Assembly: GCF_056746865.1 (NCBI RefSeq)
Contig: NZ_CM163382.1
Length of the DNA stretch: 64,000 bases
Direction: 5' to 3' (one strand)
Position 1 is the first letter of the stretch. Every line of letters begins with the position of its first letter. A program made the position numbers. Below are positions 12,001 through 18,000 of this stretch, piece by piece.

Positions 12001-15000
12001 TCACCAATCACCAGAACAAATACGTCAGTGTTGTTATCCGTAATCACCAGATCGTAGTGAGGTATGGTATCAGCAATCGTCATTAATCTCTGATGCTCCT
12101 TTGCGGCCAGTGCAAAATAGTTCAGATTAAAGAAAGGGGTATATGTGGCAAACCGGGAAGCGACTATGTAAGGATCAACTTCATTTATTTGATACTGTTT
12201 CTTCAACGCAAACTGGAAGGAAGAATATAACGTTACTGTAATTAACAATAAAAATGTAATTACCGTGACCTTTTCCGATGGCAATGAGGACGTTTTATTT
12301 ATTGCTGAACAGAAGAACAATAAAAAGAGGATAATAAATGCGATAACATAAACAACATACATCCTGAACATTCTTATTACTTCATCAGGATCTGTCTGAA
12401 GGATACTGATTGCAAAACCATCATTAAATGTTGTGCCAAATGTACACCATGAATACAGGCTGATACTGATATCTGCAGCAGTCAGTAATGTGAACGGGAA
12501 GGCAAGAATCAAACGCAACGTAATCGATTTCATTGCCTTAATAATAAGAAGTGCCAGGATAAAGAATAATATCCGGTAAATCAGATGCGCTCCTGAGGAT
12601 ACAAGGAGATTAGAAAGGGTAAAGACAACCACTGATAACACGAGGCGCTTATCATTGCTAATCCGTGACCAGTGTATGAACGGAAGATTAATTTTCATAA
12701 TAATTGAGAAAAAGCGATATTTCTGTCCGGCGCTGGTCGCTGAACATGCCGCGACAGGTGAATTCATTATTCTGAATAATCATAAAGCCACCACAAATGT
12801 AGCGGCGTAAACAGGAACGTCATGATGTTTTCTTTCGTGACAGAAGAGAACCGCACATACCACCCGCAATCATTATCATCAGGAATAACATCCCCAGGCC
12901 AACGATTACTCTTAATGCCGGATGAACCCGATCGGCGAGAAAAAATAACTCCATCCCGAAACCAATAACAAGCCAGGCCAGCGCCATTCCGACGAGCCCT
13001 TTTAACAGCAATCTCACGCTCCTCTCCTTCTGCATTCTTAACGAAAATGCCTTACAATAACAGCAGCCGGGGAAGGCAACGCTGGCTGCTGAACGGTATG
13101 ACATTTTACTGCTTTATGTTCTCTCAGTTTCTGTACTGACGCCGCCATTAATGGTATTACAGTTTATTCAGAATAAGGCATGCGGCCTGGTTTAATGCAA
13201 TAAACTCCTGCCAGCTGTACTGAGACTGATAATTCAGTAAATACTGGTCTTCAACCCGGCAAATCTGTGGGCGTTTATCATAAATTGCACACAAATGAGA
13301 ATCAGTCTGATAGTAACGGCAAATACCGTCACCACGATCCAGACATTGCGTTTCACCCGCCCTGTTGACATGACGACAACAGGCCCCACACTGGTTACAG
13401 GGAAATGGAGGGTGTAATTTCATCGCTTATTTAACCAGTCACGAACAGAAGCCACATTTCCTGACTCAAACGGCAACGCAATCCCTCGTCGGCGGACTTC
13501 TTCTCTCAGCAGAAGTCCGCGCTCTATCTCACTGTTTACGCTATCCAGATGAAGTGAAAAATGATTTAACTCGGCAGCATCAACAGAAAATTCCAGTGCA
13601 GTAAGTTCCACAAGATAGCGATCAAGTTCAGCATTGACTGCCTGAAAGTATTCCAGTGACCGCTGGAATTTGTCCTTAAATTTGTCCAGAAATGCCCATA
13701 CCCGCTGCATAACCTCGCTATATTCGAGATAATAATTCATCACCAGCCCGAGAATACCTGTCGTCAGCGCACCACAAAAGGCAGCAAGCTCTGAACCAAA
13801 TGGGAAAATAAGGATCTGCGCCATCGCCTCATTTATCATCACCCCTCCGGCAACAGCCACACCTGCTGCTATCAGTTTAGTGACCGCTTTGGCTAACTGC
13901 CCCGGCGATAATCCCTCCGGATTAAATACCAGGACTTTAAAGGCCTGAACGAGATTGTTCCACATTTCCCTGATAAGCCGGACAATCATTCTTTCCGTTG
14001 TCAGGAATATATTTAACAGCGTTGTGGTAATACCTGACAGTATCCCTCCGATGACACCATCTTTAAAGGCAATTAAAAAAGAACTGAATTTTTCCTGTAC
14101 TCGTTCCTGGCAGGCACGTAATGCTGACGTTATTTCGGACAGGCATTTGCCGGCGCTGAATGAGTTCCGTTGCTGCCTGATAATATGCGGGATTCGTTCC
14201 CTCAGTTCGAACCAGATCTCGGCAAGAATAAGCCCCAACATCTGTCGCGTCCCCATACGAAAACCGGAATTAAGCGAAGCACTGGCGACAGCAGTAGCAA
14301 ACTTACTACTCAGGTAATAGCTCTGATTAATCGTGGCCTCATATTTTTCCCGGGCATATTTATCAGCCCTTTCCATACGCTCAGTATCTGCATCAGCTTT
14401 TTTTCTCAGACTTATCAGACGTTTCTTTTCCTTTTCTGTCAGCGTTGCCTGAGATTCAAGCTCTGCTATCTGCCTTAACGTATCTTCTCTGTTTTTCTGC
14501 AGCGTGCAAATAAACGCATCCATTGAGTCTGCTTTCTTTGATTTATTGAGCGACTCATGAGTGAATGCCAGATTTGAAGCGTCATTTGCCAGTTCTGCAC
14601 CATCCCGTTCAGCAAGAATTCTCCCCGGATCATCATGAATTTCTTTAGCGGAAATAATATGATCCAGATTTTTTTTGTCGTCAGAAGCAAACACCTCGCC
14701 TGTATATGCATCAGTAAGAGTCCCTGCCTGATGCGCACGCTTTCCTTCCCGGTTCGTCGCGATATAGTTCTCATGGCTGTGGTAATGATGAGAATCATAT
14801 TCGCCACGACCTTCATACCGCTGTCGCTCAGCCTCCGTGGCATAAATGCCATTACGCACATTATGGATAGTGTCAACATCACCACCCTTACGATCATTTA
14901 GCAACAGAAAATCCAGCCCGAATGATGTAACCAGGCTCTTCACCATGGTCTGATGTAACTCTTCTGTCCAGTCAAATTTTTCCACATTCATGTTATTTCA

Positions 15001-18000
15001 CTTCTTGTAAAGCCGGGCTTTAACGCCCGGTAAATCATTAACTCTGGGATGAAAAATCATCAAATTTCACAACCGAACTGGCCAGTACATCATCCAGCTC
15101 ATCCTTATTAATAACGTTCATTCCATTATCATCCGTTTCCATTTCAATAACGTTATCTTTTATCACTGCCTCACCATTTTCCTGTTTCCGCGGTTTAAAC
15201 AGTGGCGTTGTAATAATATCCGTCATAATAGCGGCCAGTGAATATCCATGGTCAATAAGCACAATGACTTCATCTGATACACTGATATCCTGTTGTTCTG
15301 TAATAACAGAATGCATGGATTTAAGCGGCTCAAAATAGTGTTTAATAAATACAGCATGCATTCTGTTCAGTGCAGCGAGAATTTCATCAACGTATTGATT
15401 AACTTTTGCAAAATGCTCCCGGGCCAGATTCATTTTCTTAACTGCCCGTGCAACATCGCAGGCACACTGATGGGCATTTTCAAGAGCTTTCGTCGCATGT
15501 CTGTCGTAAGCCCAGCCCGCAATGGCAATCAACGGTGCAGCCACTGCGGTGCCTAATACCATTGCGCCGCCGGCCATTCCCATGCCCCCTGCAGCCAGTG
15601 AGCCCCCACCAATTGCCGCCATCGTCGCGTTATAAGCCGCGGCACCAGAAAGCGCTGCAATGGGTGTACCTGTAGAAGCCGCAGCAAATGCCATCACTCC
15701 GCTATACACAGCAAAACCCGCAGCAGCCCCGGAAACTCCGGCAGCAACGACCGTACTGAGATATTCTGTCGCTGAAATGGCCAGGTTCTGAATCTTATTG
15801 ATGTTATGTTGCGGGACACTCAGTTTCAGGTCTTTATTGCCCTCTTTTTCCAGACGCGCCAGGAGCTCAGCAGCAATCCTGTCGAACTCACTGAAATCTT
15901 TACCAATCTCAAGCTCTTTATTTCCGAGCGTTGTTAATTTTGATGATGTCTGAGCTTCAGCCTGCTCAAATTTTTCTTTATGCTCCTCGTAACGCTCTTT
16001 TGCTTTTTCGAGGATATCCTCTGCTTCTGACTTTTTTTGATATCCATCGTAAGCTTTTTTTCCGCCGAATGCCGCAGCGCCGGCAGCCACACCCAAAATA
16101 ATAAAAGGTAACGCCATTCTTTTCCTCCTGTACAGATTGCTTTATCATCAGTCAACTGAAATATTTCAGGAAACATTCTCAGCAGTAAGGTATTTTCCTA
16201 ACATTGTTAACACGGCTTCTTTCAGCCATACTGGTTCAATAATTTCAACATTCGGTAGCCAGTATAAAATCAACGGGACAATTTGATTTTTATGTGCAGC
16301 CTTGCATGACAGCGTAATGCCATTGTCATGTTTGTGTAGCAATTGCTGGTAAGGAAGTAAGTCCCGTCGCAAAAAATAATGGGCGATATTACTGTAAATG
16401 AACAACACAACATCAAATGTTTTGTCGCTCACCCACGGGTCACATGACTCACTTACCAGTGACTGGATTTCATCACTCTTTGCAAACTTTTCTTTTTTTA
16501 TATCCAGCCATTTTATTTTAGCTAATGAAAACGACTTTAACTTGTTCTCTTCAGTAGCCAGCAAATACCATATACCTCTCTGATTAGTTAATTTATAGGG
16601 ATGAACGATTCTGGTCTTACCGGCATATGCAATCTGGCAAACATTACTGTTGCAGATCGCTTTTTCAAGAACATCAAGATATTTTCTTAAATCATCCCTG
16701 ATGGTGTGCTCAGGGTTATGAAACTGAACACGAATATGCCTTTCGGTTGCCCTGTTTTCTAATTTCTGCCAGAAACCTTCATCCCGTTCAGGAAAAATCG
16801 CATCAGTATCCAGTAACCTGGCCAGAGATTTGTGCAGTGATTCTTTGCTCTGGTTTCCTGCTCTTGCCGAAATAAGCCGGTATTTTCCATCGCCACAGGC
16901 TTCAATAAAGGGAGAAAGCATATTCAGATCACGATATGCTGTTCGCTCAGTGATGTTGTATTTTTTCATCAAATTATAGCGACTGACCACGCCATAATTT
17001 TGTAATTCAACAAGGATATCAATCAAACGCTCCGCTGAGCGATTTCTCGTTGAGTCAACCATAAATCACTGCACCTGTAGTATTACTCTTGTGTAAGTGA
17101 ATTATATAAATACTCCTGACATCATTTGTCAGTTCCACAAAACTACGCCCTCCGGCAACAGATTTTTATTTGATTATGTTCAAACTTTAAACCAGATGTC
17201 CGGGAGCCTCCTTCGTAATACGGTTTATTGTTTCCGGAAGGGCTGATATGACAAAAAACAACGTGTCCCAACAACAGTCCTTTTTCATTTAACAGACTGA
17301 CAACCATACTGCGCGCTACCTGCCCCCTGTAAAAAATCAACGAAAGTAATATTTTTGCTCTATTTATATTTCATTCATCTGAAATTATTAGTTGCCAGAG
17401 GGAGAATATCATCAGGATATCTGTTATTGATTTGTCATACCTGCACTTTACTGTGCTCCAAAGCGCAGGCAGAAATGGCTGTCAGAAGTTATATGTTGCA
17501 CCTAACATAAACTCGTTACTTCTGACATCAACAGAGGATTTATATTTAGCACCATCCTCATCTTTATAAGTCAGAGTGGAATCCCCTGCATCCAGATACC
17601 GGTAGCTGAGGTCAAGGCTGAAATCCTGCGTCACATCGTATTTAACACCGGCACCCAGGCTCCATGCCAGGTTGTTTTCGTATTTTGACGCTGAAGCTGA
17701 ATAAACTTCACTGCCTGCCGGGCTGTTATCGGTATATATGTACGAAGTTTTATGATGAACCCGTGCATAACCCAGACCAGCAGATATCCATGGCGTGAAT
17801 GCACTGCTGTTTCTGAAATCATAATACGCATTCAGCATCAGCGTGTTTACACTGAGCTTGTTCTGTGCATCATCGAACTCGGCACCACCGGCACTTTCCC
17901 AATAACTCAGACGATATTTTGATTCAGCGTTACCGCGGCCATAAAACTCCACTTCAGTACGCACCGGCACATTGTAGTGCTGATAAAAATCGTATCCCAC

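What the first reader, a model, noticed from the sequence alone, without database searches (positions are those of the whole stretch)
13157..17062. WYL-regulator-led three-gene membrane cassette: candidate undescribed defence or abortive-infection system
Four co-directional minus-strand genes with operon-like spacing: 48 bp from the WYL gene to gene 1, 46 bp from gene 1 to gene 2, and a 4-nt stop/start overlap between gene 2 and the YkgJ-like gene.
- 16166..17062: WYL-domain HTH regulator (BrxR/CapW-like architecture).
- 15038..16117: 359-aa protein with N-terminal membrane anchor, coiled coil, and a long Gly/Ala-rich glycine-zipper-like hydrophobic hairpin.
- 13420..14991: 523-aa protein with soluble N-terminal region, coiled coils and C-terminal TM helices.
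- 13157..13423: 88-aa YkgJ-type CxxCxxCC metal-binding protein.

WYL regulators often head phage-defence operons, and glycine-zipper membrane proteins are typical membrane-disrupting effectors. I could not place either large protein in any named family. The cassette sits in an island that also carries type I R-M, a dGTPase and toxin-antitoxin modules. That this is a defence system is inference from architecture and context only.
Basis: partly seen in the sequence, partly recalled or inferred. Interest (0 to 1): 0.85.

Follow-up and report, generated by a model that had tools for sequence, protein, structure and literature searches.

The report
Membrane-tethered nuclease cassette, candidate phage defence
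This is a real, mobile and widely conserved three-gene cassette (a glycine-rich membrane protein, a membrane protein carrying a probable DNA-cutting domain, and a small cysteine-cluster protein), here headed by a WYL regulator, that often sits among known anti-phage genes and is most likely an untested defence system acting on DNA at the cell membrane.

Summary
The four ORFs, their spacing and the ATGA stop/start overlap are exactly as described.

- **Core unit.** The conserved unit is a triad: A (359 aa), B (523 aa) and C (88 aa). It recurs in about 80 species across several phyla, survives a change of gene order, and its three proteins co-diverge.
- **Optional parts.** The WYL regulator is present in roughly 60% of loci. 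A TerB-like protein is present in a few.
- **Protein A.** It carries an almost invariant Gly/Ala-rich hydrophobic hairpin.
- **Prior cataloguing.** PADLOC already holds unpublished candidate models: PDC-M09A matches A and PDC-M40B matches B. I found no experimental report.
- **Context.** Neighbours are strongly defence-like in E. coli, Morganellaceae, Vibrio and a Klebsiella plasmid: type I R-M, Zorya II, Kiwa, Hachiman, Azaca, BREX and Wadjet. Elsewhere they are housekeeping genes.
- **Other carriers.** Jumbo Aeromonas phages encode an A–B pair. Diverged B relatives pair with a dynamin-like GTPase or a Gly-zipper–TerB protein.

Defence function is probable but inferred. The link to the adjacent phosphoethanolamine transferase is rejected.

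The parts
17116..17132 (.). Candidate operator palindrome CTGACA-N5-TGTCAG, about 55-70 bp upstream of the WYL start codon
   Evidence: and one search show the sequence CTGACAAATGATGTCAG. One search finds the same arms with a different 5-nt loop at the same distance upstream of the WYL gene in Citrobacter portucalensis, Citrobacter sp. R56, Enterobacterales CwR94 and Pectobacterium fontis. Binding has not been tested.
16166..17062 (-). WYL-domain transcriptional regulator (wHTH-WYL-WCX, YafY-like); an optional, exchangeable head of the cassette
   Evidence: Pfam gives WYL 8.7e-9, WCX 3.3e-7 and HTH_11 1.4e-3. PADLOC WYL models score 2.6e-22. The gene is present in about 60% of loci and its divergence correlates only loosely with g2 (rho 0.45).
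15038..16117 (-). Protein A (g1, 359 aa): N-terminal TM anchor, long coiled-coil helices, central Gly/Ala-rich hydrophobic hairpin, C-terminal helices plus a small beta element
15503..15763 (-). Gly/Ala-rich hydrophobic block of protein A (residues about 119-205): AASTGTPIAALSGAAAYNATMAAIGGGSLAAGGxGMAGGAM
   Evidence: 37 of the 64 invariant alignment columns fall in residues 127-203 across Gamma-, Beta- and Alphaproteobacteria. The block is also retained in the jumbo-phage homologue. A related motif occurs in the partner protein of a diverged branch.
13420..14991 (-). Protein B (g2, 523 aa): cytoplasmic N-terminal alpha/beta domain, coiled coil, polar-studded hydrophobic helices, C-terminal coiled coil
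   Evidence: It matches PADLOC PDC-M40B at 1.3e-42. The legacy name 'cobalamin adenosyltransferase' has no support from NCBIfam or Pfam. In the AF2 model residues 40-225 have pLDDT above 90. The N-domain profile finds 844 clusters at 50% identity.
14512..14769 (-). Probable His-Me finger (HNH/DUF1524-like) nuclease core of protein B (residues about 75-160): L-D-Y-G … LDH(I/V) … AN…SNL..T….N.SK
13717..14274 (-). Membrane-associated region of protein B (residues about 240-425)
   Evidence: Hydropathy segments lie at 302-422. Invariant polar residues occur within the hydrophobic helices: R249, Q250, E258, W260, E262, T324, N327, T331, R341, E342. The AF2 model has low confidence here.
13157..13423 (-). 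Protein C (88 aa): YkgJ-type CxxCxxCC cysteine-cluster protein, translationally coupled to B by an ATGA overlap
   Evidence: Pfam PF03692 scores 1.5e-3 and NCBIfam YcgN-family models give weak hits. Eight Cys are 99% conserved in 84 homologues. It co-diverges with g2 (rho 0.73). PGAP leaves it unannotated in some E. coli records but annotates it in others.

Best explanation
The locus is a mobile three-protein module, A-B-C, placed in this E. coli island under a WYL-domain regulator. It most likely functions in exclusion of phages or other invading DNA.

**Proposed mechanism**
- Protein B is held at the inner membrane by its C-terminal hydrophobic helices, together with protein A. A supplies an N-terminal anchor, a coiled-coil scaffold and an ultra-conserved Gly/Ala hairpin.
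- B's N-terminal His-Me/HNH-like nuclease domain faces the cytoplasm. It cuts DNA at or near the membrane, for example DNA entering the cell. Membrane tethering keeps it away from the chromosome.
- Protein C is made in stoichiometric amounts by translational coupling. It is a metal (Zn or Fe-S) cluster partner that regulates or stabilises B.
- The WYL protein probably binds the CTGACA-N5-TGTCAG palindrome and sets operon expression in response to a ligand.

**Shown**
- Gene structure.
- Co-conservation and co-divergence of A, B and C.
- Invariance of the nuclease-like motif.
- Mobility across chromosomes, an ICE-like element, plasmids and jumbo phages.
- Embedding among known defence systems in several lineages.
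- Membership of PADLOC candidate families.

**Inferred**
- Nuclease activity.
- Membrane topology.
- The A-B-C complex.
- The target DNA.
- Regulation.
- The defence phenotype itself.
For: **Triad conservation.** A scan of one genome per species found 174 relatives of B, and 80 loci were fetched. A, B and C lie together in nearly all complete loci. This holds despite an order change from A-B-C in Proteobacteria to B-C-A in Firmicutes, Spirochaetes and Fibrobacter. Divergence of A and of C tracks that of B (rho 0.75 and 0.73, n=79).

**Nuclease domain.** See the HNH part entry.

**Defence context.**
- E. coli: type I R-M plus an AriA/NsnB-like ATPase, and Zorya II beside an IS-truncated copy.
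- Morganellaceae: the same A protein sits next to Kiwa, Hachiman, type I R-M, PvuRts1I-like and BrxR genes in three different arrangements.
- V. cholerae: between Azaca and BREX or Wadjet.
- V. parahaemolyticus: at the edge of tra genes.
- Klebsiella IncFIB plasmid: near HEC-05.
- PADLOC candidate models match A and B. These candidates come from a guilt-by-embedding screen.

**Mobility.** 69 plasmids carry a B homologue. 373 of 5426 complete E. coli genomes carry the cassette, in at least two island contexts.

**Phage-borne copies.** Jumbo Aeromonas phages carry adjacent A and B homologues. This fits superinfection exclusion.

Against: - No experiment of any kind was found.
- In an unbiased sample, only 2 of 30 nearest large neighbours in 15 genera hit PADLOC. 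In Aeromonas, Pseudomonas, Sphaerotilus and Snodgrassella the cassette is flanked by housekeeping genes.
- The membrane parts of both AF2 models have low confidence, so topology and complex formation are unverified.
- C is missing from the phage version.
- WYL regulators also control DNA-damage responses, not only defence.
Confidence: 0.55

Rival explanations
1. Abortive infection by membrane disruption. Protein A's glycine-zipper hairpin oligomerises into a pore or lesion that depolarises the infected cell. B and C act as sensor or regulator, and the WYL protein keeps the toxic operon repressed.
Against: All pore-toxin similarities are below significance. About 40% of loci have no adjacent WYL regulator, and a lytic jumbo phage carries A-B, which argues against an intrinsically lethal product. 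The model leaves the invariant nuclease-like motif of B unexplained.
Confidence: 0.2
2. A membrane-remodelling or membrane-repair module related in logic to bacterial dynamin-like systems such as Eleos/LeoABC and DynA. A and B form a coiled-coil scaffold on the inner membrane that seals or reshapes membrane after phage or envelope damage. The HNH-like domain is auxiliary or degenerate.
Against: There is no GTPase domain in A, B or C. The LeoBC and BAR similarities are low-complexity or coiled-coil prone and are not significant by hhalign. The catalytic-type residues of the HNH-like motif are invariant across phyla, which argues against a degenerate domain.
Confidence: 0.12
3. A selfish addiction or competition module of mobile elements (toxin-antitoxin-like, entry exclusion or anti-plasmid), or a WYL-controlled DNA-damage response function, rather than anti-phage immunity.
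For: The cassette rides on plasmids (69 records, 23 of them conjugative), on an ICE-like element and on pathogenicity islands next to pap fimbriae. WYL regulators can govern DNA-damage regulons. In V. cholerae it follows a umuC-like gene.
Against: It has no recognisable toxin-antitoxin architecture. It is stably maintained among housekeeping genes in many genomes. Its repeated embedding among dedicated anti-phage systems is more specific than general carriage on mobile elements.
Confidence: 0.1
4. A housekeeping envelope pathway functionally linked to the adjacent phosphoethanolamine transferase and outer-membrane protein.
For: In this window the cassette lies between a phosphoethanolamine transferase gene (11094-12767) and an outer-membrane protein gene (17482-18228).
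Against: The transferase is not next to the cassette in any other genus examined. In a second E. coli island the gene at the corresponding position is a frameshifted pseudogene annotated only as 'hypothetical protein', while the cassette is intact. The cassette is present in only 6.9% of complete E. coli genomes. No envelope-biogenesis family matched.
Confidence: 0.02

Closest known systems
PADLOC-DB v2 phage defence candidates PDC-M09 (component A) and PDC-M40 (component B)
   Same: Protein A matches PDC-M09A (3.5e-22) and protein B matches PDC-M40B (1.3e-42) over most of their lengths. The Vibrio, phage and diverged homologues match the same models. These models are unpublished guilt-by-embedding candidates.
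   Different: The two proteins fall under two different candidate systems. A does not hit any PDC-M40 component and B does not hit any PDC-M09 component. Protein C hits no PADLOC model. I found no text on either candidate and no validation. The closest PDC-M40B match is a diverged branch with different partners, WYL + DUF726 + Gly-zipper-TerB (5.5e-66).
SNIPE, a membrane-bound GIY-YIG nuclease that cleaves phage DNA during injection (bioRxiv 10.1101/2025.11.03.685801)
   Same: [quoted passage not shown]
   Different: SNIPE is a single protein with an N-terminal TM segment, DUF4041 and a C-terminal GIY-YIG domain. Here the nuclease-like domain is N-terminal and HNH-like, the anchor is a multi-helix C-terminal region, and two partner proteins are obligatory. 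There is no sequence relationship. It is a functional analogy only.
Type II Zorya (ZorA2-ZorB2-ZorE)
   Same: An inner-membrane complex combined with an HNH-family nuclease effector. A Zorya II system occupies the neighbouring position in a related E. coli island.
   Different: No MotAB-like stator proteins are present. hhalign of the B N-domain against ZorE found nothing. The nuclease here is fused to the membrane protein rather than soluble.
Eleos / bacterial dynamin-like defence (LeoA, LeoBC)
   Same: A and a related partner protein give weak matches to the helical and hydrophobic part of LeoBC. One diverged B relative is operonic with a Dynamin_N protein.
   Different: There is no GTPase domain in the E. 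coli cassette. The matches are weak, at most 1e-5 in composition-biased regions, and are not confirmed by hhalign.
WYL-domain regulators of defence and stress operons (BrxR, CapW, DriD, PafBC; YafY family)
   Same: The wHTH-WYL-WCX architecture, a position at the head of the operon, and a conserved palindrome upstream.
   Different: The BrxR-specific Pfam domains (WHD_BrxR, BrxR_CTD), seen in the neighbouring V. cholerae and Morganellaceae BrxR genes, are not detected here. The ligand and the mode of action (repressor or activator) are unknown.
GmrSD C-terminal / DUF1524 and Cas9-type HNH nucleases
   Different: All scores are below family thresholds. There is a spacer of about 29 residues between DH and NL, and a large conserved N-terminal extension (FGLDF…GGDVDTIHNVR) not known from those families.

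Membership tests
WYL-domain transcription factor (YafY/BrxR/CapW-like) | N-terminal winged HTH | tested here: met
   HTH_11 scores E 1.4e-3 and HTH_DeoR 0.032 at residues 12-50. The match is weak but in the expected position.
WYL-domain transcription factor (YafY/BrxR/CapW-like) | Central WYL domain and C-terminal WCX domain | tested here: met
   WYL scores 8.7e-9 and WCX 3.3e-7. PADLOC WYL models score 2.6e-22.
BrxR subfamily specifically | WHD_BrxR (PF26109) and BrxR_CTD (PF26107) domains | tested here: not met
   These domains are not reported by the Pfam scan of this protein. They are recorded for the bona fide BrxR neighbours.
WYL-domain transcription factor | Sequence-specific binding to an operator at its own promoter | tested here: inconclusive
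   The CTGACA-N5-TGTCAG palindrome is conserved upstream in five Enterobacterales genera while the loop varies. There is no binding assay.
His-Me finger / HNH nuclease | Catalytic His preceded by Asp at the end of a beta strand, with downstream Asn/His metal ligands on a helix | tested here: met
   D110, H111, N140 and N149 are invariant in 25 sequences across phyla. The AF2 model has strands at 107-111 and 141-145 followed by a helix at 146-152.
His-Me finger / HNH nuclease | Significant profile or structural match to a known member | tested here: inconclusive
His-Me finger / HNH nuclease | Metal-dependent nuclease activity | not testable with these tools
   This needs biochemistry on the purified N-domain and on an H111A control.
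PADLOC PDC-M40 | Match to component B | tested here: met
   PDC-M40B scores 1.3e-42 over residues 11-425.
PADLOC PDC-M40 | Match of a neighbouring gene to the other component(s) | tested here: not met
   None of the four cassette proteins, nor the downstream 94-aa ORF, hit any other PDC-M40 model at E below 0.1.
PADLOC PDC-M09 | Match to component A, and partner components present | tested here: inconclusive
   PDC-M09A matches at 3.5e-22. No other PDC-M09 component is matched, and the composition of the candidate is unpublished.
YkgJ / CxxCxxCC family (PF03692, UPF0153) | CxxCxxCC motif plus further conserved Cys, and a Pfam match | tested here: met
   C9-x2-C12-x2-C15-C16 plus C35, C45, C55 and C82 are 99% conserved. 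PF03692 scores a borderline 1.5e-3. PGAP names it a YkgJ family protein in some genomes.
YkgJ / CxxCxxCC family | Zn or Fe-S binding | not testable with these tools
   This needs metal analysis and spectroscopy.
Eleos / dynamin-like defence | Dynamin-type GTPase domain | tested here: not met
   There is no Dynamin_N or GTPase hit in A, B or C. The only matches are partial weak LeoBC hits.
SNIPE | TM + DUF4041 + GIY-YIG architecture | tested here: not met
   No DUF4041 or GIY-YIG match was found in Pfam.
ClyA-type alpha-pore-forming toxins | Elongated helical bundle with a hydrophobic head, and a significant fold match | tested here: inconclusive
ATP:cob(I)alamin adenosyltransferase (the database name of protein B) and chemotaxis protein (the database name of protein A) | Match to the corresponding curated families | tested here: not met
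   No NCBIfam or Pfam match of that kind was found. The names are propagated legacy labels.
Anti-phage defence system (generic) | Protection phenotype on heterologous expression | not testable with these tools
   No published test was found.

The most novel reading that the evidence does not exclude
A-B-C is a previously uncharacterised class of immune complex: a membrane-embedded HNH nuclease machine that destroys DNA at its point of entry. It is built on a Gly-zipper scaffold module that is shared with TerB-linked and dynamin-linked relatives. Jumbo phages have co-opted it for superinfection exclusion. The YkgJ-type metal cluster acts as its switch.
Probability: 0.3. Interest if true: 0.8.

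Novelty: new variant of a known kind. Interest (0 to 1): 0.62.

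Why it matters
If validated, this would add a widespread defence family. 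The B N-domain alone spans 844 clusters at 50% identity. The family occurs in several bacterial phyla, on plasmids, on an ICE-like element and in jumbo phages.

Its effector logic, a nuclease fused to a membrane domain with obligatory membrane and metal-cluster partners, is so far represented experimentally only by the unrelated SNIPE protein.

It would also give:
- a first function to a YkgJ/CxxCxxCC protein;
- a reason to correct two misleading database names ('cobalamin adenosyltransferase' and 'chemotaxis protein') that are propagated across thousands of genomes;
- a link between HNH-membrane proteins and TerB and dynamin-like modules.

The cassette is present in 6.9% of complete E. coli genomes, often in ExPEC pathogenicity islands. 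It could therefore affect the host range of therapeutic phages.

Tried and rejected
**Fold and profile searches that gave nothing usable**
- Foldseek of the B model against PDB gave nothing significant.
- phmmer and hmmsearch of A, B and their alignments against PDB sequences gave only coiled-coil noise.
- NCBIfam and PHROGs gave no informative family.
- hhalign of the B N-domain against E. coli ZorE found no similarity.
- hhalign of A against the dynamin partner and against the C-terminal extension of an 879-aa B relative was not significant.

**Literature leads**
- JukAB was considered because its paper mentions WYL, TerB and HNH neighbours. No PADLOC hit other than the families listed appeared for A or B. 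I could not check whether PADLOC v2.0.0 contains Juk models, so this was dropped as unsupported rather than excluded.
- The DefensePredictor paper and its supplements do not contain the three E. coli accessions.
- Searches for PDC-M09 or PDC-M40, the WP accessions, CxxCxxCC + anti-phage, and YkgJ + defence system found nothing relevant.

**Other**
- The profile search of 1.84 billion representatives with the N-domain returned only family members in its top 150, so it did not bridge to a named nuclease family.
- The promoter and terminator scan was uninformative: promoter-like sites were not above shuffled expectation, and the excess of terminator-like hits pointed to no clear transcript boundary.
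- The phosphoethanolamine-transferase linkage was rejected.

Full report
**Observation**

One search lists four consecutive minus-strand ORFs at exactly the reported coordinates:
- WYL regulator, 16166-17062 (298 aa)
- protein A, 15038-16117 (359 aa)
- protein B, 13420-14991 (523 aa)
- protein C, 13157-13423 (88 aa)

The sequence itself shows 48-nt and 46-nt gaps and an ATGA overlap between B and C. A strong ribosome-binding site precedes A.

The window is E. coli chromosome. The cassette lies in an integrase-bearing island at a tRNA-Phe gene next to dicD. It is found complete in 373 of 5426 complete E. coli genomes, always on the chromosome. Two E. coli alleles differ mostly at synonymous sites, with pN/pS of 0.10 for B, 0.09 for C, 0.30 for A and 0.40 for the WYL gene. 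All four are therefore real, selected genes. This includes the 88-aa ORF, which NCBI's pipeline leaves unannotated in some records and calls 'YkgJ family cysteine cluster protein' in others.

**What the proteins are**

*Regulator.* It is HTH_11 + WYL + WCX.

*Protein C.* It matches CxxCxxCC/PF03692 at a borderline E and keeps eight cysteines in 99% of 84 homologues.

*Protein A.* It has no Pfam, NCBIfam or PDB family. It has an N-terminal hydrophobic anchor followed by lysines, long helices, and a central Gly/Ala-rich hydrophobic block. That block holds 37 of the protein's 64 invariant columns across Gamma-, Beta- and Alphaproteobacteria.

*Protein B.* It also has no curated family. Its database name 'cobalamin adenosyltransferase', like 'chemotaxis protein' for A, has no support.
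- The N-terminal 230 residues are predicted with pLDDT above 90.
- They carry residues invariant across phyla: L-D94-x-Y96-x-G, then L-D110-H111, then A-N136…N140-L..T144….N149-x-S-K.
- This is the pattern of a His-Me finger/HNH nuclease.
- The only non-coiled-coil Pfam hit is GmrSD_C, at E 0.22 on the full protein and 0.02 on the isolated domain.
- Foldseek lists two Cas9 entries near the top at non-significant E.
- A profile alignment to the SpCas9 HNH region pairs D.Y with D.Y and DH with DH, but is not significant. I supplied that Cas9 sequence from memory.

I rate the nuclease fold as probable, about 70%, not proven. The rest of B is coiled coil plus hydrophobic helices studded with invariant polar residues. 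The model is poor there.

**Known candidate families**

PADLOC-DB matches A to PDC-M09A (3.5e-22) and B to PDC-M40B (1.3e-42). Papers describe the PDC models as unpublished candidates from a guilt-by-embedding screen. Neither M09 nor M40 appears in any paper searched. C hits no PADLOC model, and A and B fall under different candidates. This particular combination is therefore not captured as a system.

**Co-conservation**

A scan of one genome per species found 174 species with a B relative. I fetched 80 loci. ORF calling plus HMM searches showed the following.
- A, B and C lie together in essentially every complete locus.
- The common orders are WYL-A-B-C (30 loci) and A-B-C (16 loci).
- Firmicutes, Spirochaetes, Fibrobacter and Desulfovibrio have a rearranged B-C-A order.
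- The WYL gene is present in about 60% of loci, sometimes divergently oriented.
- A small TerB-like gene is inserted before A in nine loci, including the Vibrio and Veillonella loci.

Divergence of A and of C tracks that of B (rho 0.75 and 0.73). The WYL protein tracks B only loosely (rho 0.45). The functional unit is therefore the triad, and the regulator is an exchangeable accessory.

A palindrome, CTGACA-N5-TGTCAG, sits about 60-70 bp upstream of the WYL start in five Enterobacterales genera, with conserved arms and a variable loop. It is a plausible operator.

**Context**

Defence-rich neighbourhoods:
- In this window the neighbours include a type I R-M system with an AriA/NsnB-like ATPase. 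A related E. coli island has Zorya II beside an IS-truncated WYL gene.
- In Morganellaceae the identical A protein is found next to Kiwa and BrxR-R-M-GmrSD, or next to type I R-M and a PvuRts1I-like enzyme, or next to Hachiman.
- In V. cholerae the cassette lies between Azaca and BREX or Wadjet.
- In V. parahaemolyticus it lies at the edge of a tra gene block.
- On a Klebsiella IncFIB plasmid it lies near HEC-05.
- Sixty-nine plasmids carry a B homologue.

Against this:
- In Aeromonas, Pseudomonas, Sphaerotilus and Snodgrassella the cassette is a clean insertion among housekeeping genes.
- In a rule-based sample of the nearest large ORFs on each side in 15 genera, only 2 of 30 hit PADLOC.

The phosphoethanolamine transferase is an E. 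coli-island passenger only. In a second E. coli context the gene at that position is a frameshifted pseudogene.

**Unexpected relatives**

- Jumbo Aeromonas phages LAh10, D3, D6 and D9 (about 260 kb) encode adjacent A and B homologues, 34% and 30% identical over the full length. The Gly/Ala block and the DH…NL..T….N.SK motif are retained, and there is no C.
- One diverged B branch sits in WYL + DUF726 + a 231-aa protein + B + a 182-aa protein. The 231-aa partner has an N-terminal Gly/Ala hydrophobic segment resembling A's motif and a C-terminal TerB-like domain.
- Another diverged branch is an 879-aa B relative translationally coupled to an 819-aa dynamin-like protein.
- A and the Gly-zipper-TerB protein both give weak hits to the helical and hydrophobic part of PADLOC LeoBC.

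The B family thus pairs modularly with different membrane-active partners, as conflict systems often do.

**Mechanism**

The best-supported reading is a membrane-tethered nuclease complex.
- B is anchored with A in the inner membrane, with its HNH-like domain in the cytoplasm.
- C is a stoichiometric metal-cluster partner.
- In E. coli a WYL regulator sets expression.

The closest functional precedent is SNIPE, a membrane-bound GIY-YIG nuclease that cuts phage DNA during injection and becomes toxic when released from the membrane. Type II Zorya also combines a membrane complex with an HNH effector. Neither is homologous. Phage-borne A-B copies fit superinfection exclusion.

Rivals are a glycine-zipper pore causing abortive infection, a dynamin-like membrane-repair role, and a selfish-element or DNA-damage function. 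None can be excluded without experiments.

**Verdict**

The system is real, mobile and widespread, catalogued only as unpublished candidates, and experimentally untouched as far as I could find. It is a new variant within the known kind of WYL-associated, membrane-linked nuclease defence candidates.

Noticed in passing
window 18850-21368 (minus strand), next to the type I R-M S subunit gene at 21377-22519: A 540-aa ABC-type ATPase matches PADLOC PDC-M55A (1.4e-40), NsnB (3.2e-37) and AriA (5.5e-22). It overlaps a 313-aa partner with no family match. The pair looks like a PARIS/Menshen-like two-gene module attached to the type I R-M operon. GC content here is only about 33%.
   Followed up: partly
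window 12820-13104 (annotated as 12820-13017 in RefSeq): A small hydrophobic ORF lies directly downstream of protein C. It is annotated as a 65-aa hypothetical protein and travels with the cassette in two different E. coli islands, with pN/pS about 0.34. I did not check whether it belongs to the system outside E. coli.
   Followed up: partly
window 9931-10950 and 17482-18228: A TPR-repeat protein and a 248-aa outer-membrane beta-barrel protein flank the cassette in both E. coli island contexts. The block TPR … C-B-A-WYL-OMP therefore moves as one piece within ExPEC-type islands carrying pap fimbrial genes.
   Followed up: no
L092 (Aeromonas phage LAh10, record 95366-97962) and phages D3, D6, D9: Lytic jumbo phages of about 260 kb encode adjacent full-length homologues of proteins A and B but no protein C. 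The gene after B encodes an unrelated protein with a hydrophobic, signal-peptide-like N-terminus.
   Followed up: partly
L102 1599-6694 (metagenome contig SRR33593556_33547): An 879-aa relative of protein B is translationally coupled to an 819-aa Dynamin_N protein. This suggests a link between this HNH-membrane family and bacterial dynamin-like systems.
   Followed up: partly
L101 2363-7511 (metagenome contig DRR182650_81036): This locus has WYL + DUF726 hydrolase + a 231-aa protein + the best PDC-M40B match (5.5e-66) + a 182-aa protein. The 231-aa protein has a Gly/Ala-rich membrane segment, a coiled coil and a TerB-like domain. It is probably the architecture on which PADLOC's PDC-M40 candidate was built.
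   Followed up: partly
E. coli genomes, for example L090 8997-9359: Seventy-one further E. coli genomes (444 with any match minus 373 with at least 80% of the cassette) hold only a partial match. The three such records listed retain the 5' end of the WYL gene. In strain ET358 it is cut by ISKpn26 and sits beside a type II Zorya system. This indicates turnover at the island position.
   Followed up: partly
window 13420-16117 and public annotations: The names 'ATP--cob(I)alamin adenosyltransferase' for B and 'chemotaxis protein' for A are propagated through RefSeq, UniRef and phage records without any supporting family match.
   Followed up: yes
window 9229-9866: IS1 transposase fragments (InsA-like and InsB-like ORFs) and an integrase-core pseudogene lie just upstream of the TPR gene, marking a mosaic junction in the island.
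   Followed up: no
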